Shown here: piece after piece, positions 1 through 11,785 of the stretch | Layout: every line of letters begins with the position of its first letter | How positions within the stretch are numbered: the first letter of the stretch is position 1 | From: a virus | Taxonomy: Duplodnaviria > Heunggongvirae > Uroviricota > Caudoviricetes | Length of the DNA: 11,861 nt | IMG/VR virus record: IMGVR_UViG_2585427739_000006 | Strand: one strand, 5' to 3' | The notes under the pieces: generated by a model | Told to the model about the DNA's origin: nothing | The model's input: the letters and a program-made list of their open reading frames with translations, nothing else | The model's database searches: none | Translations under genes and position numbers: made by a program

Positions 1-283
1 TATGGCGACGCTGGGGCGTCTTATGAGCCTGCTGTCACCCTTTGACGTGGTGATATGGATGACGGATGGCTGGCCGCTGTATGAATCCCGCCTGAAGGGA
101 AAGCTGCACGTAATCAGCAAGCGATATACGCAGCGAATTGAGCGGCATAACCTGAATCTGAGGCAGCACCTGGCACGGCTGGGACGGAAGTCGCTGTCGT
201 TCTCAAAATCGGTGGAGCTGCATGACAAAGTCATCGGGCATTATCTGAACATAAAACACTATCAATAAGTTGGAGTCATTACC
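1..283 (+). mobile_element. IS1 insertion sequence, right-hand portion (window starts inside the element)
   Basis: ORF 2..268 encodes an InsB-type transposase C-terminus ending ...HYLNIKHYQ. Bases 261..283 (ATCAATAAGTTGGAGTCATTACC) match the IS1 terminal inverted repeat as I recall it. Recalled, not searched. Confidence 0.88.
2..268 (+). CDS. insB: IS1 transposase InsB, C-terminal 88 aa (5' end cut by window edge)
   Basis: Open frame running from the window edge to a stop at 266..268; the protein tail matches the IS1 InsB C-terminus from memory. Confidence 0.85.
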
Positions 284-312
284 CGATTTCTTTATCTCTT
301 ACATCAGACGAG

Positions 313-344
313 CGCCGGTTGCAGAATACCAGTCACAACCGGCG
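313..344. other. Perfect 9-bp inverted repeat (hairpin) between the exonuclease stop and the IS1 end
   Basis: CGCCGGTTG (313..321) pairs with CAACCGGCG (336..344) around a 14-nt loop. No flanking U-tract on either strand, so not a canonical intrinsic terminator. Confidence 0.4.
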
Positions 345-355
345 ACAGTTGAACA

Positions 356-2827
356 TTAAGAATCAGCCTGACTCGGGATCAGTTTTTGCCAGATAACTGA
401 AACGTATTTTGCCTGGTAACGGGCGTCATCAAGTGCATTATGGCGCTCACCTTCGAATGGAATAGCCGTTCTGGCATCGAAGTCTATGGCTTTCCCCAGC
501 TCAACGATTGTGCGTACATCGCGATCGTTGTAGTAACGCCACGGGCAGGGGATCCCCTGCCGTTCGTATGAACGGCGCAAAATCGTGTTGTCGAAGTTGG
601 CTCCATTTCCCCAGACCTGAACAAAAAATTCACCGGAGTTTTCGTCGATAAATTCCCGCAATTGTAACAGTGCATCATCTAACGGGATTTCATCGGTCAT
701 AATGGCAGATTGCGCTTCGCGTGATTGCTTAAGCCACCATTTAATGGTGTTCCGATCAATGACTCCGCCAGCAGTTTCCAGATCGATAGTCTTACTAAAT
801 TCCGGTCCCATATCTCCGGTTTGCGGATCGAAAAATATTGCACCTATTGAGATGATCGGGGCATCAGGATTTTTTCCCATGGTTTCAAGGTCGATCATTA
901 GATGGTCACACGTCCTGCTGGTGGATGTGATTTCGTGATGACCGTTCACCTTAATTGAGTGATCTGCCGTCTCGCCAGTTTCATTATCGCTATTGTGATG
1001 CTGATTGCCGCCAGTGTTCTCCTTGTGTGGATGTTCAGCGCCTTCCATTTCCTCCGGATCATCTTCCTGAACTTCAACCTGATATTCTTCATCGAATGTT
1101 TCTTGATATGTTGCGTCGCCCATCACCGCGCCACAATCAGGGCAGTTGCCGCCGCCGGTCTGACCGCAGGCGGTGCAGACTTTTTCCACTTCCTGTTGCG
1201 CCACTGGTTCAGGCTGTTTCGTTTCTGGCTCGTTTTGTAACGCATTTGTGCTGTTTTGTTCCGCTTTTTGGTAGTTCCGTTCCGATTCATGCTGGTTCTG
1301 GTTCACAGAATCGCGGGTCTGGATCCCCTTAACCCATTTCGGATCATTCGGGTCACTAATCCCTTCAACAAATTCACCACGTGATGCAGCAAGCAACTTA
1401 TCGGCGTCAGGCTGGCTGATATTGGCTGCCTGCATAATTTTGTTTACTTCGTCAGCGGTAACTTTTATCGGCTCTGGTTGTTCTGAATCTTCAGCGGTAT
1501 CTACATTTTGCGGTAAGCCCGTGTATGTGCCATTTTTTCGGGCAAAATATTCTTCTTTTGTGATTTCAGTGGCGCCAGCAGCCAGTGCCTTATCCAGACC
1601 AGAAAGTTTGTTTGCGCGACCGTATTTTTCTCCGTCCTTATCTGCGAAGAGGAAATAGAACGGCCCCTCACGCTCTACAGATGGTTCAGCTTCCGGCGCG
1701 GTTTCATTTTTTGGGATATCAGATACCTCAGTTTCCACTGCATCAGTTTGTGTTTCTGATGACTGGAGAACATCAACAGTGCCCAGGTCTGTTTCTTCAT
1801 TCTCAAACACGCCCTTTGTCGTCAGGTATTCGCAGATATATTTGTTCAGTGCTATGGGATCTTTGTGAATGTCGATCGGACGCTCACGGACAAGGCCAAA
1901 AATAGTCTGGCGGTCGTAGCGAAGGGCATCAGGCTGTTTGCGCATTGATGCCGAGATACGCTTCCAGTCTTCGCGGTCGTTGTCGATAACTTCATTTTTT
2001 GCCCAGCGATGGATGCTGCCGTCAATGTTTCCGGCATCCACATCACCAGGCCAGAGAGCGTAGGCCAGTTCGTCATCCAGTGTTTTCCATGTCTGCTTGT
2101 ATTCGCGATGAATGGCAGCAATGACCAGGCTGATTTTTCCTGTTGAATTTTCAGTGTGCTGTTGATTGACTCTGGCGCGGGCGAGATCAACAACAGACGT
2201 GTATTTTCCGGTTTCCTTGCGTTCACCTTCGCGACGTTTTTTCCAGATGCGCATCTCTGCCTGAATTTCGGGCCATTTAGCACCAGGAATACATTTATGC
2301 TTAACCCACCCAATGGCGTGCAACTTAAGCTCCGGATACATGGCGTTAACTTCTGGCATTTTCATCAACGCTTCAACGATATGTCCGTCGAATGTTGCCA
2401 TGTCTTCCTGCAACAATTCCTGTGCGCTAATAACCATATCAACGGTGATGTTTTCACATGTGTCGAACTTAACCATGACAGCGTTCTGTACTTCAGGGGC
2501 CAGCTTGTCAAAAGTGACGTTCATCGGATCGGATTCAGTCTCAACCGGGACAAAAGAAGCAGACTCCTCATCCCAGCGGTTTTCCTGCATATATTCAGCA
2601 TCCCATGAATCGAGGGCAGGGCGGGGTATGCCAGGTTTATCCTCGCAGACAATAAATTTATAAGCGCAGTCCTGAGCAGCCGGATAATGTTCCAGGAACT
2701 GCCAGTGAAATTTTGCTCGAGCACGGCGTTCGTCGCCAGCTTCAATGGCTGTGGCTACAGCCACAGCGCCTTCTTCCCTTGTTGCCAGTTCGTCAGGAAT
2801 AGCGGCGCAAATAAAGACTTTACTCAT
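356..2827 (-). CDS. Large phage-type exonuclease (823 aa): unknown N-terminal/central region, CxxC-x7-CxxC zinc ribbon, acidic/His-rich linker, C-terminal DEDDh (DnaQ-like) 3'-5' exonuclease domain
   Basis: Uninterrupted 2.47-kb ORF with ATG at 2827 and a GAGG about 10 nt upstream. The last ~185 aa (nt ~359..913) carry Exo I MIDLETMG, Exo II VWGNGANFDNTIL and Exo III HNALDDARY motifs. Zinc ribbon CTACGQTGGGNCPDCG maps to nt 1133..1177. It sits at the position of ydfE downstream of ydfD in the Qin arrangement as I recall it. Confidence 0.8.
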   Translation of the reverse strand: MSKVFICAAIPDELATREEGAVAVATAIEAGDERRARAKFHWQFLEHYPAAQDCAYKFIVCEDKPGIPRPALDSWDAEYMQENRWDEESASFVPVETESDPMNVTFDKLAPEVQNAVMVKFDTCENITVDMVISAQELLQEDMATFDGHIVEALMKMPEVNAMYPELKLHAIGWVKHKCIPGAKWPEIQAEMRIWKKRREGERKETGKYTSVVDLARARVNQQHTENSTGKISLVIAAIHREYKQTWKTLDDELAYALWPGDVDAGNIDGSIHRWAKNEVIDNDREDWKRISASMRKQPDALRYDRQTIFGLVRERPIDIHKDPIALNKYICEYLTTKGVFENEETDLGTVDVLQSSETQTDAVETEVSDIPKNETAPEAEPSVEREGPFYFLFADKDGEKYGRANKLSGLDKALAAGATEITKEEYFARKNGTYTGLPQNVDTAEDSEQPEPIKVTADEVNKIMQAANISQPDADKLLAASRGEFVEGISDPNDPKWVKGIQTRDSVNQNQHESERNYQKAEQNSTNALQNEPETKQPEPVAQQEVEKVCTACGQTGGGNCPDCGAVMGDATYQETFDEEYQVEVQEDDPEEMEGAEHPHKENTGGNQHHNSDNETGETADHSIKVNGHHEITSTSRTCDHLMIDLETMGKNPDAPIISIGAIFFDPQTGDMGPEFSKTIDLETAGGVIDRNTIKWWLKQSREAQSAIMTDEIPLDDALLQLREFIDENSGEFFVQVWGNGANFDNTILRRSYERQGIPCPWRYYNDRDVRTIVELGKAIDFDARTAIPFEGERHNALDDARYQAKYVSVIWQKLIPSQADS

Positions 2828-2920
2828 TTTGTTTTAACCTCATGACAGATTTAAGGATGAACAAATCCCTGCCATTGCTGGCATATAAGAATGAAACCGG
2901 ATATTTATTACGGAACTGTT

Positions 2921-3112
2921 TTAAAGACCTGCCGGGATTTCGATATTATCCTGGTGAATAACTTTATCGACCGGGTAACAGTTACCGGGAATTTTCTGTT
3001 CGGTTGCTGCAGTCATACACTCCTGCATTGTCCTGTGAACACTGACTGCAATATCAACTGGCTCTCCGGAAACAAGAAAAACTGTCAGAACAAGCGCAAA
3101 TGCTGAATTCAT
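2921..3112 (-). CDS. ydfD: YdfD-like small membrane/lysis protein (63 aa) with N-terminal hydrophobic segment
   Basis: ATG at 3112 with AAGGA 8 nt upstream; protein MNSAFALVLTVFLVSGEPVD... matches my recollection of Qin YdfD. Its start overlaps the dicB stop in an ATGA arrangement. The ORF-track start at 3166 lacks a ribosome-binding site. Confidence 0.6.
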   Translation of the reverse strand: MNSAFALVLTVFLVSGEPVDIAVSVHRTMQECMTAATEQKIPGNCYPVDKVIHQDNIEIPAGL

Positions 3113-3297
3113 TGTGCACATCCTTTTGGCATCAGACGTAAACGAGCCAGCATTGAAACAATGCATATTTTATTTAATAGCTCCCGTTCTTGTTTTCTCT
3201 TGTTAATGGCATCTTCAGTAAATACAGGGTTACTGATAGTGACACCAATTTCAAAACAACCTTCAGACGTATTAACGTTTGGTAATAACGTTTTCAT
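3109..3297 (-). CDS. dicB: DicB cell-division inhibitor (62 aa)
   Basis: ATG at 3297 with GAGGA 7 nt upstream; translation MKTLLPNVNTSEGCFEIGVTISNPVFTEDAINKRKQERELLNKICIVSMLARLRLMPKGCAQ matches E. coli K-12 DicB as I recall it. The longer 97-aa ORF-track version has no ribosome-binding site. Confidence 0.75.
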   Translation of the reverse strand: MKTLLPNVNTSEGCFEIGVTISNPVFTEDAINKRKQERELLNKICIVSMLARLRLMPKGCAQ

Positions 3298-3466
3298 TAT
3301 CGCGTCCTCAACAATGAATTTTGTGATGCAGTGCCTGGTGCCTCCAGGTGACGTTAACCAGTTAACAATTAACGCCGGATACAGAGAATCCACCCATAAC
3401 ACTGTTTTTGGTTTTAACTGTTCCGCGTGCGCTTAGCCGCATTCACCGCATCACAAAATTCACTTT

Positions 3467-3524
3467 AAAAACGGCGGCAGAGCAGTCACGGAGTAAAACT
3501 GATACCGCCAAACGTCACCAGAAA
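3467..3524 (-). ncRNA. dicF: DicF small RNA (ftsZ-targeting sRNA of the dicB operon), 53 nt plus 3' U-run
   Basis: Minus-strand sequence TTTCTGGTGACGTTTGGCGGTATCAGTTTTACTCCGTGACTGCTCTGCCGCCG followed by TTTTT. This agrees at 52 of 53 positions with the K-12 DicF sequence as I remember it, and it lies immediately upstream of dicB as in Qin. Confidence 0.75.
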
Positions 3525-3643
3525 ATTGATAACAGAGGGCGTTGCAGCGGGGTTGTCACTTAAGCGTATGGTCAACCTGACAACTCGGTGTCCTCAACGG
3601 GGAAGAAATACCCCCGCCATACTTACCGCCGCGCCATTTCGCG

Positions 3644-3720
3644 GGTTGCCACAACCGGAAGCGCACGGTCGAATTAAATTTAACGACACCGTACAGTGAG
3701 ACGAACTTCGCCGTGCGCTT
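3644..3720 (-). promoter_or_regulatory. Structured untranslated leader upstream of dicF: 10-bp perfect inverted repeat with nested palindromes (candidate RNA processing or regulatory structure)
   Basis: AAGCGCACGG (3659..3668) pairs with CCGTGCGCTT (3711..3720) around a 42-nt loop that itself contains GTCG/CGAC flanking the palindrome TTAAATTTAA (3674..3683). A small GGTTG/CAACC hairpin lies at 3644..3656. No convincing ORF in 3525..3799 on the minus strand. Confidence 0.3.
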
Positions 3721-3799
3721 TCGTGTTGTGTGCCTGCTTTTAACCACGTCAGGCGAGGTGGTATCCTTCTTATTCCGAATAACCAAGAAGGAAATCTAT

Positions 3800-4000
3800 A
3801 TGACTAAAGAAGAATTTGTCTCTTATATTTTTGATAAAACGGTTGAAATGTATGCCGCTACTTACGGGTCCTGTAATCCTCTGAATAAACCAGAGGGGAA
3901 AGATGATTTCGACAAAATTTACCGCTTCTTGGAGGACCGCTATATCAAAAGGTTAGAGGACGCAGGGATCAAATCCCCAGTGAAGTCACCATTGTCCTGA
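3800..4000 (+). CDS. Hypothetical protein, 66 aa, AT-rich gene antisense to the leftward operon
   Basis: ATG at 3800 preceded by AAGGA with a 7-nt spacer; first 100 bp are about 37% GC. No recognisable motif. Its 3' end overlaps the convergent 121-aa gene by 32 bp. Confidence 0.45.
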   Translation: MTKEEFVSYIFDKTVEMYAATYGSCNPLNKPEGKDDFDKIYRFLEDRYIKRLEDAGIKSPVKSPLS

Positions 4001-4334
4001 GAACTTGCAGGACGTCATGATCGTAACTTCCATCCAAACCGCGACGGCAAATTGCTTCTCGTATTACCGGAAGCAGTTCGCTGGAAATCTCGGTGCATAT
4101 TTCACCTGCTAATACGCCTGGCTCAAGTGAGAATATTGGTGAACTTACGGTCTTGGTCTCGACAGTTTCAGAGTCAGTGCCAACATTATAAAGCTCAACG
4201 AAAGCGGTCTTGATTTTCCGGGCCAGATCTTTTGCTGGCTCGCTTGCAATATCTTTCCCGATTTCTCGCAGCACAGAATGCAATGTATGAGCTGCTGTTT
4301 TCTGTACATCAGACGGTAAATCTTTAAATTCCAT
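3969..4334 (-). CDS. Hypothetical protein, 121 aa, at the position where a cI/DicA-type repressor would be expected
   Basis: ATG at 4334 with GAGG 6 nt upstream (the ORF-track start at 4346 has none). No obvious helix-turn-helix. Divergent from the rightward operon across a 212-bp intergenic region. Confidence 0.5.
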   Translation of the reverse strand: MEFKDLPSDVQKTAAHTLHSVLREIGKDIASEPAKDLARKIKTAFVELYNVGTDSETVETKTVSSPIFSLEPGVLAGEICTEISSELLPVIREAICRRGLDGSYDHDVLQVLRTMVTSLGI

Positions 4335-4546
4335 CGTCAGCCTCATCAGTCAGTGTTTCTGGCTAACCAGCAACGCGCGCCAGATTCGGTTTTAAACGTT
4401 TTGCTTTTGGTATATGTCATCGCGGTGAACGTACCGTCCTGGTTGGGGAACACGCCACATACAGGAGGCATCTGGCGGCGAGCTTCTGTATGATCCCAAG
4501 GTTTATGACGAATATCGTAAGACGAAGCGGGCGGGGCGGTTGAACA

Positions 4547-5068
4547 ATGAAAATCACTCCTGAACAGGCTCGTGAGGCTCTGGATGCCTGGATATGTCGA
4601 CCAGGAATGACACAGGAGCAGGCGACGATATTAATCACTGAAGCATTCTGGGCTTTGAAAGAGCGCCCGAACATCGATGTTCAGCGTGTCACAGATGAAG
4701 GTGGCGCGGTTGATCAGCGAGCGCTTGGCGTTAATCGAGTGAAGATATTCGAACGCTGGAAGGCTATCGACACTAGGGATAAGCGTGAAAAGTTCACGGC
4801 GCTAGTGCCTGCAATTATGGAGGCTATCCGGATTAATGATTTCAGGTTGTATCGTGAAATTAGTGACGGAAAAAGCATCACGTACATGATCGCCGGGTTA
4901 AACAAAGAATATGGCGATGTGGTGGAGTCCGGACTGCTTTTTGCTGATCCTGCCGTAGTGGATCGTGAAACTGACGAACTTATAGAAAAAGCAATTGCTT
5001 TCAAACTTGCGTATCGACAGCAATACCAACAAAAAGCTGGATGGAATTATGAGCCTTCTTTTTGCTGA
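4547..5068 (+). CDS. YdaT-like protein (173 aa), possible CII-analogous regulator; first gene of the rightward operon
   Basis: ATG at 4547 directly after an in-frame TGA. The segment ...RWKAIDTRDKREKFTALVPAIMEAIR... resembles what I recall of the Rac/CP-933P YdaT family. Assignment is from memory and tentative. Confidence 0.55.
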   Translation: MKITPEQAREALDAWICRPGMTQEQATILITEAFWALKERPNIDVQRVTDEGGAVDQRALGVNRVKIFERWKAIDTRDKREKFTALVPAIMEAIRINDFRLYREISDGKSITYMIAGLNKEYGDVVESGLLFADPAVVDRETDELIEKAIAFKLAYRQQYQQKAGWNYEPSFC

Positions 5069-6014
5069 ACGCCCACTGGTTATAAACACACAGCTTGCGA
5101 TGAAGATTGGCTTAAATGAAGCCATTGTGTTGCAGCAGTTGCATTACTGGTTGAGAGATACCAATTCCGGCATGGAATGTGATGGTGTTCGCTGGATTTA
5201 CAACACAACGGAACAATGGCTGGAACAGTTCCCATTCTGGTCAGAGTCAACGTTAAAGCGCGCGTTTGCAAGTCTGAAAACGCTGGGGCTTTTGCGTTGT
5301 GAAAAGCTCAATAAATCAAAGCGCGATATGACCAATTTCTACACGATCAACTATGGGAACGAGCTTTTAGATGGTGGCAAATTGAACGAATCCATCGGTT
5401 CAAAATGCGCCGCTCCATCAGGTCAAAATGACACGATGGAAGAGGTCAAAATGAAACGCTCCATTGGTTCAAAACGACCCAATGTCATCGGGTCAAAATG
5501 GCCTGATGATCTTACAGAGAATACAACAGAGATTACTACAGAGAATAAAAACACTTTTCGTCCGGAAGCTTCGCAACCGGACCCGCAGACCGCTGAACAG
5601 GATTTTTTAATCCGGAACCCCGACGCGGTTGTGTTTAGTGCGAAAAAACGCCAGTGGGGTAGCAGGGAGGATTTGGCGTGTGCGCAGTGGATTTGGGGGC
5701 GGATCGTGAACCTTTACGAACAGACTGCCAGCGACGATGGAGAGATCATGCGACCAAAAGAGCCTAACTGGACAGCCTGGGCCAATGACGTGCGCACAAT
5801 GCGGATGCTGGATGGCAGAAGCCACAGACAAATTTGCGAAATGTTTGGTCGGGTACAGCGAGATCCATTCTGGGTAAAAAACATCATGAGCCCGTCAAAA
5901 CTCCGCGAAAAATGGGACGAACTGGTCATCCGCTTGGGACGTTCACCTGTACAGCGTTGTGTGAATCATATTTCTGAACCGGATACAGAAATTCCGCCTG
6001 GTTTCAGGGGATAA
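5049..6014 (+). CDS. Replication initiator, lambda O-like (origin-binding), about 321 aa
   Basis: Long ORF containing the iteron array in its middle, as in lambda O, where ori lies inside the gene. Start is uncertain: ATG 5049 has a weak ribosome-binding site; TTG 4995 and ATG 5100 are alternatives. Overlaps the upstream gene by 20 nt. Confidence 0.7.
   Translation: MSLLFAERPLVINTQLAMKIGLNEAIVLQQLHYWLRDTNSGMECDGVRWIYNTTEQWLEQFPFWSESTLKRAFASLKTLGLLRCEKLNKSKRDMTNFYTINYGNELLDGGKLNESIGSKCAAPSGQNDTMEEVKMKRSIGSKRPNVIGSKWPDDLTENTTEITTENKNTFRPEASQPDPQTAEQDFLIRNPDAVVFSAKKRQWGSREDLACAQWIWGRIVNLYEQTASDDGEIMRPKEPNWTAWANDVRTMRMLDGRSHRQICEMFGRVQRDPFWVKNIMSPSKLREKWDELVIRLGRSPVQRCVNHISEPDTEIPPGFRG
5392..5501. 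repeat. Origin iterons: five direct repeats at 23-24 bp spacing
   Basis: TCCATCGGTTCAAAATG (5392..5408), TCCATCAGGTCAAAATG (5415..5431), AGAGGTCAAAATG (5442..5454), TCCATTGGTTCAAAACG (5461..5477), TCATCGGGTCAAAATG (5486..5501). Core GGT(T)CAAAA(T/C)G ends at 5408, 5431, 5454, 5477 and 5501. Confidence 0.78.
5515..5550. repeat. AT-rich block of three 12-bp direct repeats adjacent to the iterons (candidate DNA-unwinding element of ori)
   Basis: ACAGAGAATACA / ACAGAGATTACT / ACAGAGAATAAA in tandem, immediately after the iteron array. Mirrors the iteron-plus-AT-rich layout of lambdoid origins. Confidence 0.55.
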
Positions 6015-6054
6015 GTGTTGATTTCAGGTCATGAGGTAATTTTAAGGAGGACTT

Positions 6055-6453
6055 GTGGCAAAAGTTTTTACACAGGAAGAGCGGGAAAAAATTAAAGAGC
6101 AGGTGGTCGAACTTGTGCGCCAGAGCGGTCGCGAGACATTACGACAGTTGGAAGCTAAAACAGGTGCGACAAGATATCTGATGAGCATTCTTGCCAGAGA
6201 GCTGGTTGCCAGTGGTTATGTATACAACTCCGGCTACGGGTTATTCCCGTCTGAACAGGCACGAAAGGACTGGCAAAATGCCCGCAAAAAACTCTCTAGG
6301 GCGAAGGTGAAGAAACCCGCTGTGGTTGATCCGGACCTTATCTGGTCACTACCTGATGGAGAAATACGTCGCTACGACAGTCGTCTAAACATAATCTGTC
6401 GCGAGTGCCGGAAGAGCGAAGTTATGCAGCGCATACTGGCATTTTATCAGTGA
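6055..6453 (+). CDS. Hypothetical protein, 132 aa, possibly a winged-helix DNA-binding protein
   Basis: GTG start at 6055 with AAGGAGG at 6044..6050 (short 4-nt spacer). The segment ETLRQLEAKTGATRYLMSILARELVASGYV looks helix-turn-helix-like. No family recognised. Confidence 0.55.
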   Translation: MAKVFTQEEREKIKEQVVELVRQSGRETLRQLEAKTGATRYLMSILARELVASGYVYNSGYGLFPSEQARKDWQNARKKLSRAKVKKPAVVDPDLIWSLPDGEIRRYDSRLNIICRECRKSEVMQRILAFYQ

Positions 6454-6545
6454 AATTTTCGTTATTTATAGACGTAACTAGATTAAAGAGCATTAGTTCA
6501 GATGTGAATTGACATTTTCACGGCACAGGATTGAGCTAGCGTGGT

Positions 6546-6571
6546 TGTCTGCTTTGCGTCAAAAGCAGATA
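6546..6571. other. Hairpin in the 181-bp intergenic region, with a nearby consensus -35 hexamer
   Basis: TCTGCTTT (6548..6555) pairs with AAAGCAGA (6562..6569) around a 6-nt loop, with no U-tract after it. TTGACA lies at 6509..6514 but no good -10 follows at 16-18 bp. Confidence 0.3.
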
Positions 6572-6634
6572 TTACCAGATTTAGACATCTATTCCCGATA
6601 GCCCTGCTCTGATGCCACACTCTGTGCTATTTTC

Positions 6635-7096
6635 ATGACCCCAATAAAAATATTTATGACTATTGCTGATTTCAAACGGCCTAAATTGGAGCTCCCAAAC
6701 GGGGCAAACAAACTACTACTGCACTCTTGCTGTGCTCCATGTTCCGGTGAAGTGATGGAGGCGCTTCAGGCCTCGGGAATCGACTATACCATCTTTTTCT
6801 ACAACCCGAACATTCATCCTCAGAAAGAGTATTTAATTCGTAAGGATGAGAATATTCGCTTTGCTGAACAACACGGCGTGCCATTTATTGATGCTGATTA
6901 CGACACAGACAACTGGTTTGAACGTGCCAAAGGAATGGAATGGGAACCCGAGAGGGGGATCCGTTGTACCATGTGTTTTGACATGCGTTTTGAGCGGACA
7001 GCGCTGTACGCTGCTGAAAATGGTTTCAGTGTGATCAGCAGTTCACTGGGCATTTCACGCTGGAAAAATATGCAGCAGGTTACCGTCACTGGATAA
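6635..7096 (+). CDS. QueH/DUF208-like protein (153 aa), possibly C-terminally truncated
   Basis: Contains [20 protein letters not shown] and [11 protein letters not shown], which match the signature motifs I associate with the DUF208/QueH family. It is shorter than typical QueH and ends at a TAA that is in frame with the next gene. No ribosome-binding site at either candidate ATG (6635, 6656). Confidence 0.5.
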
Positions 7097-8771: not shown

Positions 8772-9296
8772 TTATTGTTTAACCCATAATAGTTCATTGA
8801 CATTGAATCCCAACTTTTGAGCGGTACGCACATAGTCTGCTTTTACATTATCTGGAATAGTTTGGGTCCTTGCCAGAATCCATAGGTATTCTCTGTTCGG
8901 ACCACTGACAAGAGCATACTTATACTCATCATCCAGTTTGATTACATTATAGCCACCATAGAAGGGGCCAAAAAACGAAACTTTCAACGCTGCAGTTTTA
9001 GTATCTCCAGTAAAGTATGCTTTACCTTCGCTCTCGCTCCATTTGTTTTTCGTTGGATCGTATCCACGGTTAAGTACGCGAATCCCTCCGTCGTTCCGTT
9101 TTTCATAAGTAGCGCTGACCTGTTCCAGACCACGTTCGAACCAGTTCTCGAGGCGAGCTATTTCATACCATTTTCCGAGGTAGCGGTTGGCGTCAAAATT
9201 TGTAATCGGCTGCACACCTTTAGGTGGTGTCGGGGCCTTACATGCTATAAGAGTGAAAGAGAGTGCAATGCCAGTCAACACAGGCCATAACTTCAT
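8772..9296 (-). CDS. blc: Bacterial lipocalin Blc-family outer-membrane lipoprotein (174 aa), diverged from E. coli chromosomal Blc
   Basis: Signal peptide with lipobox LIAC (Cys19). Conserved lipocalin segments NFDANRYLGKWYEIAR, GKAYFTG, ALKVSFFGPFYGGYNVI and YLWILART. AGGA 8 nt upstream of the ATG at 9296. Confidence 0.88.
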   Translation of the reverse strand: MKLWPVLTGIALSFTLIACKAPTPPKGVQPITNFDANRYLGKWYEIARLENWFERGLEQVSATYEKRNDGGIRVLNRGYDPTKNKWSESEGKAYFTGDTKTAALKVSFFGPFYGGYNVIKLDDEYKYALVSGPNREYLWILARTQTIPDNVKADYVRTAQKLGFNVNELLWVKQ

Positions 9297-9356: not shown

Positions 9357-10970
9357 TTATTTATTAGTGAGTACTACGTTCCATGGCAGGAGTTCGTCAA
9401 CTCGGTTGGAAGGCCATTCCGGCAGTACGCTCAGGATATGGCGCAGATACGCTTCCGGATCGATACCATTCAACCGGCAGGTGCCGATCAGCCCGTACAA
9501 CAGTGCACCACGCTCGCCGCCGTGATCGCTACCGAAGAACACGTAATTTTTCTTTCCGAGACAGACTGCACGAAGCGCTCTTTCCGCTGTGTTATTGTCC
9601 GCCTCCGCCAGACCGTCATCACAGAAGTTGCACAACGCAACCCAGTGCTTCCTGATATACCGGAACGCATCTCTCAGACGGCATTTTTTCGATAACGTGT
9701 GTTCTTTCTCCTGCATCAGCTTATACAGGGAAGTCAGTAGCGGTTTACTCTGCATTTGCCTGACCGCCAGGCGTTCAGACACCGGCAACCCGCGTATTTC
9801 GTGCTCAATGGCGTACAGTTCGCCGATTAGTTTCAGTGCTTCTTCCGCCGTCGCGCTTTTGGTACTGATATATACATCGTGGATTTTGCGCCGCGCATGA
9901 GCCCAGCATCCTGCTTCCGTCAACGCGCCGCCTTCACGTTCGGCACTGAACAGCCGATCGTAACCTGCGAACGCATCTGCCTGCAGGATACCCCGGAAGG
10001 GACGAAGGTGTTGCTCCGGATGTTTACCCTGATGGTCCGGTGAGTAGGCGAACCAGACCGCCGGAGGTTCTGGCGAACCGGCATTTCGGTCATCCCGGAC
10101 ATACGTCCAGATATATCCTGTTTTCGCCTTCTTCCTGCCCGGTGCCAGTACTTTTACTGGTGTGTCATCAGTGTGAACCTTGCGGGTGTTCATCACATAA
10201 CTGTACAGGGCATCATTCAGCGGCGTCATTAACTGGCAGCACGCATCAACCCAGTTGGAGAGTAAGGCACGGCTCAGTTCGACACCCTGGCGGGCAAAGA
10301 TTTCACTCTGACGATACAGTGGCAGGTGTTCGCAGTATTTTCCCGTTAACACGCGGGCAAGTAACCCCGGGCCCGCGATACCACGCTCTATCGGACGGGA
10401 TGGTGCCGGTGCTTCAACGATGCAGTCACATTTTGTACAGGCTTTTTTTACCCGTTCTGTGCGGATCACTTTCAGGGCGCTGCTCACCAGTTCCAGTTGT
10501 TCTGCGCTGACTTCCCCCAGATAATCCAGCTCACCGCCACACTCCGGGCAACAGCTTTCTTCAGGCTCCAGGCGGTATATTTCACGGGGGAGATGTGCCG
10601 GTAACGGACGACGATGGCGCGACTGTCGCAACTGGCGGGGAACCAGCGGGTCATCCTCACGCCCACTGTAACGATCGCTTTCCTGCTCGCGTTGTTTCAG
10701 CAGGGCTTCAGCCTGTTCAACCTCACGACGCAGTTTTTCAGAACGGGTTCCGAACAGCATCCGGCGCAGTTTTTCTATCTGAGCCCGCAGATGCTCTATT
10801 TCCCGTTCATCTTCTTCGATCTTTTCTTCGGCACGTGCCAGTGCAGAGCGCAGGAAGGCCTCCGTCTCTTCAACCAGACTCAGTTGCTGGTCTTTCTGAC
10901 GGAGGGCTTCAGCCTGCTCAGAGAGCAGCCTTTCCAGCTCAGCGATGCGAATGAGGTATTTCTGACTCAT
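9357..10970 (-). CDS. IS66-family transposase TnpC (537 aa)
   Basis: Long ORF with a coiled-coil/leucine-zipper-like N-terminus, a CxxC...CxxC zinc-finger region (CCPECGG...CTKCDC) and an acidic catalytic core, as in IS66 TnpC. Confidence 0.9.
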   Translation of the reverse strand: MSQKYLIRIAELERLLSEQAEALRQKDQQLSLVEETEAFLRSALARAEEKIEEDEREIEHLRAQIEKLRRMLFGTRSEKLRREVEQAEALLKQREQESDRYSGREDDPLVPRQLRQSRHRRPLPAHLPREIYRLEPEESCCPECGGELDYLGEVSAEQLELVSSALKVIRTERVKKACTKCDCIVEAPAPSRPIERGIAGPGLLARVLTGKYCEHLPLYRQSEIFARQGVELSRALLSNWVDACCQLMTPLNDALYSYVMNTRKVHTDDTPVKVLAPGRKKAKTGYIWTYVRDDRNAGSPEPPAVWFAYSPDHQGKHPEQHLRPFRGILQADAFAGYDRLFSAEREGGALTEAGCWAHARRKIHDVYISTKSATAEEALKLIGELYAIEHEIRGLPVSERLAVRQMQSKPLLTSLYKLMQEKEHTLSKKCRLRDAFRYIRKHWVALCNFCDDGLAEADNNTAERALRAVCLGKKNYVFFGSDHGGERGALLYGLIGTCRLNGIDPEAYLRHILSVLPEWPSNRVDELLPWNVVLTNK

Positions 10971-11000: not shown

Positions 11001-11351
11001 TTACAACATTGTCAGTGCGTTAAGGCGGGATGTTTTTGGCTGACGCCAGTCCAGCTTATCGAGGAGCATTGCCAGTTGCGAGCGGGTAATGGATATCTTA
11101 CCGTCACGCACCGCAGGCCAGATAAACTGACCTTCCTCAAGGCGTTTGGTGAACAGGCACAGACCATCAGCATCAGCCCACAGGATTTTAATCGTGTCTC
11201 CCCGTCGGCCACGGAAGATAAACAGGTGACCGGAGAAGGGGTTATCATCCAGCACATGCTGTATCTGCTCCCCCAGACCGTTGAAGGATTTACGCATATC
11301 AGTAACGCCGGCAACGAGCCAGATACGGGTACCTGATGGGAGTGAAATCAT
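11001..11351 (-). CDS. IS66-family accessory protein TnpB (Orf2, 116 aa)
   Basis: 116-aa ORF whose ATG (11351) overlaps the tnpA stop as ATGA. The sequence MISLPSGTRIWLVAGVTDMRKSFNGL... is typical of IS66 Orf2. Confidence 0.88.
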   Translation of the reverse strand: MISLPSGTRIWLVAGVTDMRKSFNGLGEQIQHVLDDNPFSGHLFIFRGRRGDTIKILWADADGLCLFTKRLEEGQFIWPAVRDGKISITRSQLAMLLDKLDWRQPKTSRLNALTML

Positions 11352-11785
11352 CGTCCCCTCCCGGTCAGCTCACGGATCAACACCGTGAGCAGCTCTGGTG
11401 AAGGATTTTCCAGCATCATTTTACCGTAATGGAATTCCACATGGCAGGAAGCTGCACAAGCACCTGATAATGCCTCCGGAGCAGGAGCATCTGTAGCACA
11501 GCGCGGGGTGTCGATAAGTTCCACTGGAACCAGAGTCGGAGAGGCCGGAAAAGATTGTGATACTGTAGGGCCTACAATAGTTGGAGGCATTCTACGAGAA
11601 ATACGTCCTTCTCTTTGCCAGAGGCGTAGCCATTTAAAAATCAGGTTGTTATCAACGCCATGTTCCCGGGCCAGTTGTGCAACATTGGCATTTGGTTTCG
11701 AAGCCAGTTCAACCATATGAAGTTTAAATTCATTAGAAAATATCCGGCGGGTTCCGGAGCGCCAGTCTGTAGGTTTATCCATCAA
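11348..11785 (-). CDS. IS66-family TnpA (Orf1, 145 aa), helix-turn-helix protein
   Basis: First ORF of the IS66 operon, starting 76 bp from the window edge; N-terminal helix-turn-helix-like region. Confidence 0.85.
   Translation of the reverse strand: MMDKPTDWRSGTRRIFSNEFKLHMVELASKPNANVAQLAREHGVDNNLIFKWLRLWQREGRISRRMPPTIVGPTVSQSFPASPTLVPVELIDTPRCATDAPAPEALSGACAASCHVEFHYGKMMLENPSPELLTVLIRELTGRGR

What the first reader, a model, noticed from the sequence alone, without database searches (positions are those of the whole stretch)
5392..5560. Replication origin embedded in the initiator gene
Five iterons with a GGT(T)CAAAATG core recur every 23-24 bp and are followed by three tandem 12-bp AT-rich repeats, all inside the ORF of the putative initiator. 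The protein correspondingly shows repeated SIGSK/VIGSK peptides. This is the lambda O/ori-lambda design and suggests a self-contained replicon module.
Basis: seen in the sequence. Interest (0 to 1): 0.4.

Follow-up and report, generated by a model that had tools for sequence, protein, structure and literature searches.

The report
Prophage replication origin inside initiator gene
The repeats are real and are almost certainly the replication origin of a lambda-like E. coli prophage, written into the flexible middle of its own initiator gene; this design is well known, but this initiator has no helicase-loader partner and ends in a copy of the host DnaT protein's tail.

Summary
Observation confirmed. 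Three 12-bp ACAGAGAnTAC repeats follow. All lie in gene 5049-6014.

The sites are read in all three frames, so they are DNA repeats, not peptide repeats. Homologues from E. coli to Staphylococcus and Bacillus phages keep the same 23-bp phased array at the same place. The core CAAAATG is constant and the flanks mostly change on both half-sites together.

The 12-mers are fixed at synonymous codon positions (ACA 85/85, GAG 84/85). They are the least stable duplex in the gene.

The origin DNA encodes a predicted disordered linker between a winged-helix N-domain (closest fold: plasmid RepA_N) and a lambda-O-like C-domain.

So the "lambda O/ori" reading is supported, and pSK41 Rep is an equally close analogue. 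It is a new member of a known kind.

Two qualifications:
- No helicase-loader gene follows. Instead the protein ends in the last 20 residues of host DnaT. Among homologues this tail is found only where a partner gene is absent.
- In this window an 837-bp deletion has removed the repressor and early promoter, so the module is probably silent.

The parts
5049..6014 (+). Initiator gene (321 aa). Winged-helix N-domain aa 1-107, disordered linker aa 108-175, lambda-O-like C-domain aa 176-297, DnaT-like tail aa 302-321.
   Evidence: ORF and translation. Annotated 'phage O protein family' in the identical E. coli NT1F25 locus. phrog_391 E=1.7e-92. AF2 domain layout. BLASTP to lambda O.
5049..5369 (+). 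Coding region of the N-terminal winged-helix domain, the presumed iteron-binding domain.
   Evidence: pLDDT about 80 with H-H-b-b-H-H-b-b topology. Foldseek best hits are the RepA_N N-domains 4pql/4pt7/5kbj and wHTH regulators. Conserved 46-75% from Klebsiella to Listeria phages. No Pfam family.
5375..5387 (.). Iteron slot 0 (GGTGGCAAATTGA).
   Evidence: Lies 23 bp upstream of slot 1. The same slot reads GAGGTCAAAGTGACC in relatives.
5398..5410 (.). Iteron slot 1 (GTTCAAAATGCGC), read as S-I-G-S-K-C.
5421..5433 (.). Iteron slot 2 (GGTCAAAATGACA), read in another frame as P-S-G-Q-N-D. The most conserved slot among relatives.
   Evidence: Mean major-allele frequency 0.988 across 23 distinct linker DNAs.
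5444..5456 (.). Iteron slot 3 (GGTCAAAATGAAA), read in the third frame as E-E-V-K-M.
5467..5479 (.). Iteron slot 4 (GGTTCAAAACGAC region), read as S-I-G-S-K-R.
   Evidence: Five of 6 flanking positions form a dyad.
5491..5503 (.). Iteron slot 5 (GGTCAAAATGGCC), read as V-I-G-S-K-W. It lies 24 bp after slot 4 and next to the A+T-rich tract.
5511..5551 (.). A+T-rich tract: CTT + ACAGAGAATACA + ACAGAGATTACT + ACAGAGAATAAA + AA. Presumed DNA unwinding element. Encodes L-T-E-N-T-T-E-I-T-T-E-N-K.
   Evidence: TRF and pattern statistics. Least stable 40-bp duplex of the gene: -45.6 kcal/mol against a window mean of -56.3, sd 4.0. Synonymous positions are fixed across 38 representatives. The same tract sits behind unrelated iterons in an Stx1 phage O gene and in at least 120 viral contigs.
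5574..5939 (+). Coding region of the C-terminal domain, homologous to the lambda O C-domain. In lambda this is the part of O that contacts P, which is established knowledge and not tested here.
   Evidence: BLASTP 34% identity, E=7e-28, over aa 147-294. Helical, pLDDT 70-84.
5952..6011 (+). C-terminal tail QRCVNHISEPDTEIPPGFRG, 14/20 identical to the last 20 residues of E. coli DnaT.
   Evidence: BLASTP. PDB sequence hits to DnaT 2ru8, 6aep and 9zbt cover the tail only. The NCBIfam DnaT model scores 16 bits against a cut-off of 201. Predicted disordered.
4547..5068 (+). Upstream gene of the early operon (YdaT/CII-like). It overlaps the initiator start by 20 nt.
   Evidence: PF06254 and phrog_163.
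6055..6453 (+). Downstream gene, DUF977/Ren-like. It sits where lambda has P, and it is not a helicase loader.
   Evidence: PF06163 E=8.6e-27 and phrog_142.
4460..4462 (.). Junction of an 837-bp deletion relative to phage mEp460_ev081. The deletion removed the repressor gene, the divergent early promoter region and the 5' end of the cro-like gene.
   Evidence: blastn of the window against L001 gives 834-4462 = 1-3628 and 4460-6566 = 4466-6579. L001 annotation. The partial 'transcriptional regulator' pseudogene in NT1F25. No sigma-70-like promoter in 4300-6200.

Best explanation
Window 5372-5551 is the vegetative replication origin of a lambdoid (mEp460/Qin-like) E. coli prophage. It is embedded in the gene of its own initiator.

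Proposed mechanism:
1. The initiator's N-terminal winged-helix domain binds, probably as dimers, to six phased dyad sites of the type GGTCA-AAA-TGACC. The sites are 23 bp apart and build an O-some-like nucleoprotein complex.
2. This complex destabilises the adjacent 40-bp A+T-rich tract made of three ACAGAGAnTAC 12-mers.
3. The lambda-O-like C-domain, together with a C-terminal tail copied from host DnaT, then brings in the host helicase. No phage P/DnaC-type loader is encoded.

The origin DNA can coexist with coding because it encodes a disordered linker between the two folded domains.

What is shown here: the repeats, their phasing, DNA-level constraint, conservation of the architecture across phyla, the domain homologies, and the absence of a loader gene. 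What is inferred: binding, unwinding, and the role of the tail.

In this window the module is probably silent, because the repressor/promoter region upstream has been deleted.
For: Repeats and statistics.

The array is a DNA repeat, not a peptide repeat. The six cores sit in frames 2,1,0,2,1,1 and give different peptides.

The architecture is conserved.
- Every homologue of the N-domain that was examined in detail has CAAAATG-type sites just after the N-domain. These are E. coli, Klebsiella, Pantoea, Erwinia, Hafnia, Pseudomonas, Vibrio, Stenotrophomonas, Staphylococcus, Bacillus and Listeria phages.
- The spacing is 22-24 bp wherever several sites are present.
- By a strict criterion, 24 of 38 representatives have phased arrays.

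Dyad covariation. The base pair flanking the core is complementary in 17 of 24 arrays: T-A in 8, G-C in 8, A-T in 1. Examples are GGTCAAAATGACC (E. coli), GGGACAAATTGTCC (Hafnia) and GAGGGCAAATTGCCCTC (Erwinia/Pantoea).

Within the E. coli/Klebsiella group, core columns are invariant in 40 of 66 positions against 26 of 65 for spacers.

12-mers.
- The representatives were chosen by N-domain protein homology only. In them, Thr is ACA in 85/85 motif codons against 158/697 elsewhere in the genes.
- Glu is GAG in 84/85 against 348/678 elsewhere.
- The variable residue changes only at its middle base.
- The tract is the least stable duplex in the gene.
- The same 12-mers follow different iterons in an Stx1 phage O gene.
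- They also occur in at least 120 viral contigs. In 114 of the 120 they sit in frame at residues about 135-190 of 250-360-aa ORFs, usually preceded by 22-24-bp periodicity.

Protein.
- phrog_391 'O-like'.
- C-domain homologous to lambda O.
- Winged-helix N-domain with best fold hits to RepA_N initiators.
- The linker aa 108-175 has pLDDT about 25 and coincides with the origin DNA.

Known precedents. Lambda and Stx phages have iterons plus an AT-rich tract in the middle of O (PMC7466680). pSK41 Rep has its ori centrally in rep, and the linker it encodes is dispensable (PMC5703833). RepA_N iterons are inverted repeats converging on an A-tract (PMC7145576).

The same gene, 97-99% identical, is present in the phage genome records mEp460_ev081, HannyBb and PhiR42_1.

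The tail and the loader.
- The tail is 14/20 identical to the DnaT tail.
- Nineteen of 36 representatives carry it.
- In the ten tail-bearing loci tested, the genes downstream are PerC-like activators, methylases, ParB or RusA. None is a loader.
- Nine of ten tail-less loci tested have an overlapping DnaC-like or phrog_6028 partner gene.
Against: There is no experimental evidence for this family. The literature says O-only lambdoid modules have not been studied and their replication is not understood (PMC12315714).

Several signals are modest.
- The conservation excess of core over spacer columns is small: 0.93 against 0.87 mean major-allele frequency.
- Dyad symmetry of individual copies in this window is imperfect, at 1-5 of 6 flank pairs.
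- Slots 0 and 3 are weak.
- The strict phased-array criterion fails in 14 of 38 representatives, where the cores have diverged.

The 12-mers are always read in the same frame (114 of 120). A protein-level role, or simple common descent of the linker, therefore cannot be fully excluded.

The fold match to RepA_N is weak in E-value (0.02-0.17). The AF2 model rests on a shallow alignment (23 sequences, mean pLDDT 61).

The function of the DnaT tail is not defined in the papers read. The helicase-recruitment step is therefore speculative.

In this window the upstream promoter is deleted, so this copy may never fire.
Confidence: 0.8

Rival explanations
1. The repeats are initiator-binding sites, but they serve autoregulation, copy-number control (handcuffing) or exclusion of related phages rather than initiation. 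The real origin would lie elsewhere in the phage.
For: Iterons in plasmids double as control elements (general knowledge). Ectopic ori-lambda copies inhibit lambda (PMC4488673 and PMC3349717, listed). In Stx phages two of the six iterons are bound only weakly (PMC7466680). Nothing here measures initiation.
Against: The sites sit directly next to the least stable duplex of the gene. They are in the same order and on the same strand as in ori-lambda and in pSK41, where this arrangement is the mapped origin. The A+T-rich 12-mers are constrained as DNA, which a pure operator function does not explain. No other repeat cluster of this kind is present in the window.
Confidence: 0.08
2. The repeats have no DNA-level function. 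They would be a by-product of a repetitive, low-complexity protein linker (SIGSK and TExTTE peptide repeats) that arose by slippage and is kept for protein reasons.
For: The linker is predicted to be disordered. Three of the iteron copies encode (S/V)IGSK. The 12-mers are read in one frame in 114 of 120 contigs. The copy number of the 12-mer varies from 2 to 5.
Against: The 23-bp period is not a multiple of three, and the same DNA motif is translated in all three frames. The period and the core are conserved from Proteobacteria to Firmicutes phages while the peptides differ. In the 12-mers the synonymous positions are fixed while the amino acid at the variable position changes.
Confidence: 0.03
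3. The iterons are the origin's binding sites, but the conserved ACAGAGAnTAC 12-mers are not the unwinding element. They could be a conserved junction that promotes recombinational shuffling of N-domain/iteron and C-domain modules. They could instead be a binding site for a host factor or for single-stranded DNA binding by the initiator.
For: The 12-mers sit exactly at the boundary where different C-domains are joined to the same N-domain family: lambda-O-like, Phg_2220_C, DnaB_2 and others. They also follow different N-domains and iterons. In the Stx phage study, replacing the AT-rich tract did not affect O binding, and O proteins bind A/T-rich ssDNA (PMC7466680).
Against: The tract occupies the position of lambda's AT-rich unwinding region. 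It is the thermodynamic minimum of the gene. It is conserved in hosts as distant as Pseudomonas and, in degenerate form, Staphylococcus and Bacillus, which argues for long-term function rather than recent exchange. These roles are not mutually exclusive.
Confidence: 0.12

Closest known systems
Bacteriophage lambda O protein and ori-lambda (also the Stx phages 933W and P27)
   Same: The origin lies in the middle of the initiator gene. Several dyad-symmetric iterons with a CAAAA(C/T)G centre are followed on the same strand by an A+T-rich, purine-skewed tract. The C-terminal domain is homologous (34% identity, E=7e-28). The gene occupies the same place in the early right operon, after a CII-like gene and before a Ren-like gene.
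   Different: The N-terminal DNA-binding domain is not PF04492. There are six slots at a strict 23-bp phase, against four at 20-24 bp in lambda. No P (helicase loader) gene follows. The protein carries an extra DnaT-like C-terminal tail. The A+T-rich tract is built of ACAGAGAnTAC 12-mers.
RepA_N plasmid replicons of Firmicutes (pSK41, pTZ2162) and the PLE RepA of Vibrio
   Same: The initiator has three parts. The winged-helix N-domain binds iterons that lie centrally in its own gene. The central linker is encoded by the ori. The C-domain is host-specific (PMC5703833). The iterons are inverted repeats converging on an A-tract (PMC7145576). The best structural matches of the N-domain model are the RepA N-domains 4pql, 4pt7 and 5kbj. 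Staphylococcal phage homologues of the N-domain carry a DnaB_2/DnaD-like C-domain.
   Different: There is no sequence match to PF06970, and the fold match is weak (E 0.02-0.17, TM about 0.5). The element is a phage, not a plasmid. The C-domain is lambda-O-like. A distinct 12-mer A+T tract follows the iterons.
'O-only' replication modules of lambdoid phages (phage LLS and 34 of 314 Enterobacterales lambdoid phages; Genome Res 2025, PMC12315714)
   Same: [quoted passage not shown]
   Different: As far as the passages read show, that paper records the gene content only, and it states that replication of this type is not understood. The origin anatomy and the DnaT-like tail described here were not found in the searchable literature.
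E. coli DnaT (primosomal protein I)
   Same: The last 20 residues are 70% identical, ending in IPPGFRG.
   Different: Nothing else matches. The DnaT model scores 16 bits against a cut-off of 201. The 'Primosomal protein I' label on the mEp460 records reflects the tail only.

Membership tests
Lambda-type origin/initiator module (O + ori-lambda + P) | Iterons located inside the initiator gene, between the DNA-binding and C-terminal domains | tested here: met
   Six phased sites at 5375-5503 lie in the linker aa 108-175.
Lambda-type origin/initiator module (O + ori-lambda + P) | A+T-rich tract immediately 3' of the iterons on the coding strand | tested here: met
   5511-5551 is 69% A+T and is the least stable 40-bp duplex of the gene. 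It aligns with the position of lambda's AT-rich tract.
Lambda-type origin/initiator module (O + ori-lambda + P) | N-terminal domain of the Phage_rep_O family (PF04492) | tested here: not met
   No Pfam hit for the protein or its N-domain even at E<=1, whereas lambda O itself hits PF04492 at 5.7e-36 in the same search.
Lambda-type origin/initiator module (O + ori-lambda + P) | C-terminal domain homologous to the lambda O C-domain | tested here: met
   BLASTP E=7e-28, 34% identity over 148 residues.
Lambda-type origin/initiator module (O + ori-lambda + P) | Adjacent gene for a helicase loader (P or DnaC-like) or a helicase | tested here: not met
   The next genes are DUF977/Ren-like, a QueH fragment, DUF968/HNH and Q. 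No loader or helicase family appears among the ten largest ORFs of the window.
Lambda-type origin/initiator module (O + ori-lambda + P) | The initiator binds the iterons, opens the AT-rich tract and supports autonomous replication | not testable with these tools
   Requires EMSA or footprinting, KMnO4 probing and a plasmid replication assay.
RepA_N replicons (pSK41 type) | RepA_N domain (PF06970) recognisable by sequence | tested here: not met
   No Pfam match at E<=1. No PDB sequence match with a 12-sequence profile.
RepA_N replicons (pSK41 type) | Winged-helix N-domain with the RepA N-domain fold | tested here: inconclusive
   The AF2 N-domain has pLDDT about 80 and wHTH topology. The Foldseek top hit is 4pql (E=0.02, prob 1.0, TM 0.49), with 5kbj and 4pt7 also listed, but many unrelated wHTH regulators score similarly.
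RepA_N replicons (pSK41 type) | Origin central in the rep gene; iterons are inverted repeats converging on an A-tract; the linker is encoded by the ori | tested here: met
   GGTCA-AAA-TGACC-type dyads lie in the disordered linker. The family features are as described in PMC5703833 and PMC7145576. Dispensability of the linker was not tested.
PHROG 391 'replication initiation O-like' | Full-length profile match | tested here: met
   E=1.7e-92, residues 17-321 on profile positions 11-298 of 298.
DnaT (primosomal protein I, NF002770) | Score above the curated cut-off over the whole protein | tested here: not met
   16.3 bits against a cut-off of 201. Only residues 302-321 match.

The most novel reading that the evidence does not exclude
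The C-terminal tail (…SEPDTEIPPGFRG) is a molecular mimic of the host DnaT C-terminus. Loader-less ('O-only') phage initiators would use it to plug the origin complex into the host's DnaT-dependent helicase-loading machinery (PriA/PriB or DnaB-DnaC). A 20-residue host-derived peptide would then replace lambda P. This would explain how the O-only lambdoid replication modules work, which were described in 2025 as not understood.

Linked to this, the ACAGAGAnTAC 12-mers would be a conserved origin element. They are shared by initiators with different iterons from Proteobacteria to, in degenerate form, Firmicutes phages.
Probability: 0.35. Interest if true: 0.7.

Novelty: new member of a known kind. 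Interest (0 to 1): 0.45.

Why it matters
As an origin the feature is textbook in design. Its main practical value is annotation. The gene is labelled 'hypothetical protein' in most RefSeq records or mislabelled 'Primosomal protein I'. It occurs over at least 80% of its length in about 1,750 of 5,426 complete E. coli genomes.

Two things give it wider interest.

First, it belongs to the loader-less 'O-only' class of lambdoid replication modules, whose mechanism is an acknowledged open question (PMC12315714). The DnaT-tail observation is backed by the finding that the tail occurs only where a partner gene is absent. Together they give a directly testable hypothesis for how these phages load the host helicase. 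They could also give a handle on what the DnaT tail itself does.

Second, the comparative set defines a simple, searchable signature. It consists of 23-bp phased CAAAATG dyads followed by ACAGAGAnTAC repeats. This signature could locate origins in hundreds of temperate phages and prophages of both Gram-negative and Gram-positive bacteria.

Tried and rejected
- Pfam and NCBIfam gave no family for the initiator.
- A PDB sequence search with the protein found only the DnaT tail. With a 12-sequence N-domain profile it found only chance-level matches.
- The first related-loci scan returned only near-identical E. coli prophages, which were useless for divergence. It was repeated with a Pseudomonas phage sequence first in the alignment.
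- DnaA boxes: none near the origin, and the count in the window is at chance level.
- Promoter scan of 4300-6200: no sigma-70-like site. No internal promoter for the module can be proposed.
- Rfam found only DicF elsewhere in the window, and there are no tRNAs. Nothing RNA-like overlaps the repeats.
- The function of the DnaT C-terminal tail was sought in the 2026 preprimosome structure paper and the 2014 DnaT-ssDNA paper. It is not defined there, beyond the finding that removing residues 154-179 lowers ssDNA affinity and cooperativity.
- Literature searches for 'ACAGAGA + iteron' and for DnaT-like phage proteins found nothing relevant. Weaver et al. 2009 on RepA_N was not held.
- The strict CAAAATG (<=1 mismatch) detector misses arrays in 14 of 38 representatives whose cores have drifted to CAATTTG, CAGATTG and similar. 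The covariation count therefore rests on 24 arrays.
- I considered that the peptide repeats drive the DNA repeats and rejected this on the frame evidence.
Full report
**1. The observation**

Reading 5100-5900 shows the repeats as described. The repeat finder reports one family of five copies with start-to-start spacing 23, 23, 23, 24. Tandem Repeats Finder reports a period-23 array at 5391-5464 and a 12-bp repeat (2.8 copies) at 5514-5547.

GGTCAAAATG with at most one mismatch occurs five times in the window, four of them between 5398 and 5500. The expected number is 1.13, and none of 200 dinucleotide-preserving shuffles reaches five. ACAGAGAWTAC with at most one mismatch occurs five times against 0.27 expected, three of them in tandem at 5514-5549. 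Everything lies in the ORF 5049-6014.

- A sixth, degenerate slot lies 23 bp upstream (core 5378-5384). In relatives it is a good site.
- Only three of the five copies encode (S/V)IGSK. The other two are translated in the other two frames, as PSGQN and EEVKM.

**2. Context**

The window is an E. coli prophage.
- It is 99.9% identical over 9 kb to a prophage beside rspB in strain NT1F25.
- It is 94-97% identical to phage mEp460_ev081 over the early region.

The gene order is a RecE-like exonuclease, then ydfD/dicB/DicF, then a YdaT/CII-like gene, then the initiator. After the initiator come a DUF977/Ren-like gene, a QueH fragment, DUF968/HNH and the Q antiterminator. An IS66-family transposase gene lies further along.

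The initiator gene is present over at least 80% of its length in 1,749 of 5,426 complete E. coli genomes. It is mostly labelled 'hypothetical protein'.

**3. The protein**

- It matches PHROG 391 'replication initiation O-like' over its full length (E=1.7e-92). It matches no Pfam or NCBIfam family.
- Residues 147-294 align with the C-terminal half of lambda O (34% identity, E=7e-28). The N-terminal part does not align with lambda O, and PF04492 is absent.
- An AlphaFold2 model was built from 23 sequences and has mean pLDDT 61.
  - Residues 10-105 form a confident N-domain (pLDDT about 80) with winged-helix topology.
  - Residues 108-175 are disordered (pLDDT about 25).
  - Residues 180-297 form a helical C-domain.
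  - Residues 298-321 are a disordered tail.
- The disordered stretch is the part encoded by nt 5370-5573, that is, by the iterons and the 12-mers.
- Foldseek against the PDB ranks the N-domain of staphylococcal plasmid RepA first (4pql: E=0.02, probability 1.0, TM 0.49). 5kbj (RepA-DNA complex) and 4pt7 are also listed. The other hits are generic winged-helix regulators.

**4. Are the repeats constrained as DNA?**

Three lines say yes.

(a) Frames. The period of 23 bp is not a multiple of three. The six cores fall in frames 2,1,0,2,1,1, so one DNA motif yields three different peptides.

(b) Conservation of the architecture.
- tblastn with the 112-residue N-domain finds 139 phage records. I examined 15 in detail.
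- Just after the N-domain, each has sites with a CAAAATG-type core. Wherever several sites are present they are 22-24 bp apart.
- This holds in E. coli, Klebsiella, Pantoea, Erwinia, Hafnia and Vibrio phages and also in Staphylococcus, Bacillus and Listeria phages.
- The core is constant, but the flanks differ between lineages and tend to change on both sides together. Examples are GGTCAAAATGACC (E. coli/Klebsiella), GGGACAAATTGTCC (Hafnia) and GAGGGCAAATTGCCCTC (Pantoea/Erwinia).
- Of 38 representatives at 85% identity or less, 24 have phased arrays by a strict criterion. The base pair next to the core is complementary in 17 of these 24: T-A 8, G-C 8, A-T 1.
- Lambda's own iteron (TCCCTCAAAACGAGGGA) has the same plan.

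(c) Within the E. coli/Klebsiella lineage there are 23 distinct linker DNAs. Core columns are invariant in 40 of 66 positions, against 26 of 65 in the spacers. This excess is real but modest.

**5. The 12-mers**

- The tract 5511-5551 is 69% A+T and 67% purine on the coding strand. It is the least stable 40-bp duplex in the gene (-45.6 kcal/mol; window mean -56.3, sd 4.0; 99.4th percentile).
- It occupies the position of lambda's AT-rich tract. In lambda that tract is where O-dependent unwinding occurs (established knowledge; summarised in PMC7466680).
- The 38 representatives were selected only by protein homology of the N-domain, so the codon counts are independent of the motif.
  - In T-E-x-T motifs the first Thr codon is ACA in 85 of 85 cases, against 158 of 697 Thr codons elsewhere in the same genes.
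  - Glu is GAG in 84 of 85, against 348 of 678 elsewhere.
  - The variable residue (I, N, T or S) changes only through the middle base of an AnT codon.
  - Synonymous sites are therefore fixed while a non-synonymous site varies. This is the signature of selection on the DNA.
- The same tract follows quite different iterons (GGGAAAC type) in the O gene of an Stx1 phage that does have a DnaC-like loader.
- An exact scan for ACAGAGANTACNACAGAGA finds at least 120 viral contigs. In 114 of them the motif sits in frame at about residue 135-190 of a 250-360-residue ORF.
- 104 of these ORFs could be analysed in full. Their N-domains fall into one BLAST cluster of 88, one of 14, and two singletons. In 87 of the 88, the best self-similarity period of the 145 bp upstream is 22-24 bp.
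- One caveat remains. The constant reading frame means that a protein-level role, or common descent of the linker, is not fully excluded.

**6. What it most likely is and how it works**

The anatomy is that of ori-lambda: iterons plus an AT-rich tract in the middle of O (PMC7466680). It is equally that of the RepA_N plasmid pSK41. There, four Rep boxes lie centrally in rep, the N-terminal 120 residues bind them, and residues 121-199 are encoded by the ori and form a dispensable linker. The pSK41 C-domain makes host contacts (PMC5703833). RepA_N iterons are described as inverted repeats converging on an A-tract (PMC7145576), which is what is seen here.

I therefore conclude, with about 0.8 confidence, that 5372-5551 is the phage's replication origin. 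In this model the N-domain binds the phased dyads, and the complex opens the 12-mer tract. Binding and opening are inferred, not shown.

**7. Helicase recruitment**

No P, DnaC-like or helicase gene follows the initiator, and none is among the ten largest ORFs of the window. This is the 'O-only' module noted for phage LLS and for 34 of 314 lambdoid phages. That paper adds that none have been studied and that replication of this type is not understood (PMC12315714).

The last 20 residues (QRCVNHISEPDTEIPPGFRG) are 70% identical to the C-terminus of E. coli DnaT, and nothing else in the protein resembles DnaT. Three other PHROG families match the last 23-24 residues or extend through them (phrog_18526, 3729 and 1701). 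Two of the three are annotated as replication proteins.

Among the representatives, 19 of 36 carry the tail.
- In the ten tail-bearing loci tested, the next gene is a PerC-like activator (7 loci), a methylase, or has no family match. In the tenth locus only the second gene was tested, and it is ParB-like. The second genes tested elsewhere are methylases, ParB-like or RusA. None is a loader.
- In nine of ten tail-less loci tested, the next gene overlaps the initiator's stop codon. It is DnaC-like in 4 loci and belongs to the uncharacterised phrog_6028 in 5.
- All tail-bearing phages with a named host infect Enterobacterales.

The mutual exclusion suggests that the tail substitutes for a partner protein by engaging the host's DnaT-dependent machinery. 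This is a hypothesis, which I put at about 0.35. The papers I could read do not define the tail's function, and I found no paper describing such tails on phage initiators.

**8. State of this copy**

Relative to mEp460_ev081 the window lacks 837 bp. The missing DNA holds the repressor gene, the divergent early promoter region and the 5' end of the cro-like gene. The junction is at about 4460-4462. NT1F25 annotates the remnant as a truncated regulator. No sigma-70-like promoter is found in 4300-6200.

The origin sequence itself is intact. It differs from the mEp460_ev081 copy in the origin region by one base in an iteron (slot 1) and one in a spacer. The module is nevertheless probably unexpressed in this cryptic prophage.

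**9. Verdict**

The feature is a new, uncharacterised member of a well-known kind of origin. The added interest comes from the loader-less design, the host-derived tail and the widely shared 12-mer element.

Noticed in passing
window 5952-6011 (aa 302-321 of the initiator): The C-terminal 20 residues are 70% identical to the C-terminus of host DnaT (…SEPD(T/S)(E/Q)IPPGFRG). Among homologues this tail is present only where no helicase-loader-like partner gene follows. This may be how 'O-only' phage replication modules recruit the host helicase. The 'Primosomal protein I' label on the mEp460 GenBank records comes from this tail alone.
   Followed up: partly
window about 4460-4462: An 837-bp deletion relative to phage mEp460_ev081 removes the repressor gene, the early promoter/operator region and the start of the cro-like gene. 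The prophage is therefore a repressor-less, promoter-less relic. The same deletion is in E. coli NT1F25.
   Followed up: yes
window 3472-3523 (-): DicF antisense sRNA (Rfam RF00039, 72.5 bits). ydfD and dicB are annotated nearby in the near-identical NT1F25 locus. This marks the element as a Qin/mEp460-type prophage carrying the cell-division inhibition cassette.
   Followed up: no
window 9357-10970 (-), with ORFs 11001-11351 and 11348-11785 (-): IS66-family transposase with all four Pfam domains, followed by two small ORFs that could be its accessory genes (not tested). Identity to the NT1F25 prophage stops at window 9331, and NT1F25 has an IS3 element a little further on. The late region has therefore been disrupted independently in the two strains.
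   Followed up: partly
window 6635-7096 (+): Truncated QueH (epoxyqueuosine reductase) gene: only profile positions 1-126 of 175. It is annotated as a pseudogene in NT1F25.
   Followed up: no
L006 2372-3184, L007 2436-3185, L010 2507-3292, L219 2999-3910, L276 2850-3623: In tail-less homologues the gene overlapping the initiator's stop codon belongs to phrog_6028 (about 260 aa, function unknown). It occupies the position of lambda P or DnaC and may be an unrecognised helicase-loader family.
   Followed up: partly
L282, L298, L260 (linker regions) compared with window 5514-5549: The number of ACAGAGAnTAC units varies from 2 to 5 among close relatives, by clean 12-bp (four-codon) steps. This shows ongoing slippage that keeps both the frame and the motif.
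   Followed up: partly
proteins P0001, P0003, P0004 (448 aa): Some E. coli records encode a 448-residue fusion of the YdaT-like protein (PF06254) with the initiator. The cause is presumably a frameshift in the 20-nt overlap of the two genes (window 5049-5068). It is seen on up to 56 contigs.
   Followed up: no
window 8886-8896 (-): A single exact ACAGAGAATAC lies on the minus strand inside the lipocalin-like gene region. It is isolated, has no iterons nearby, and is probably chance.
   Followed up: no
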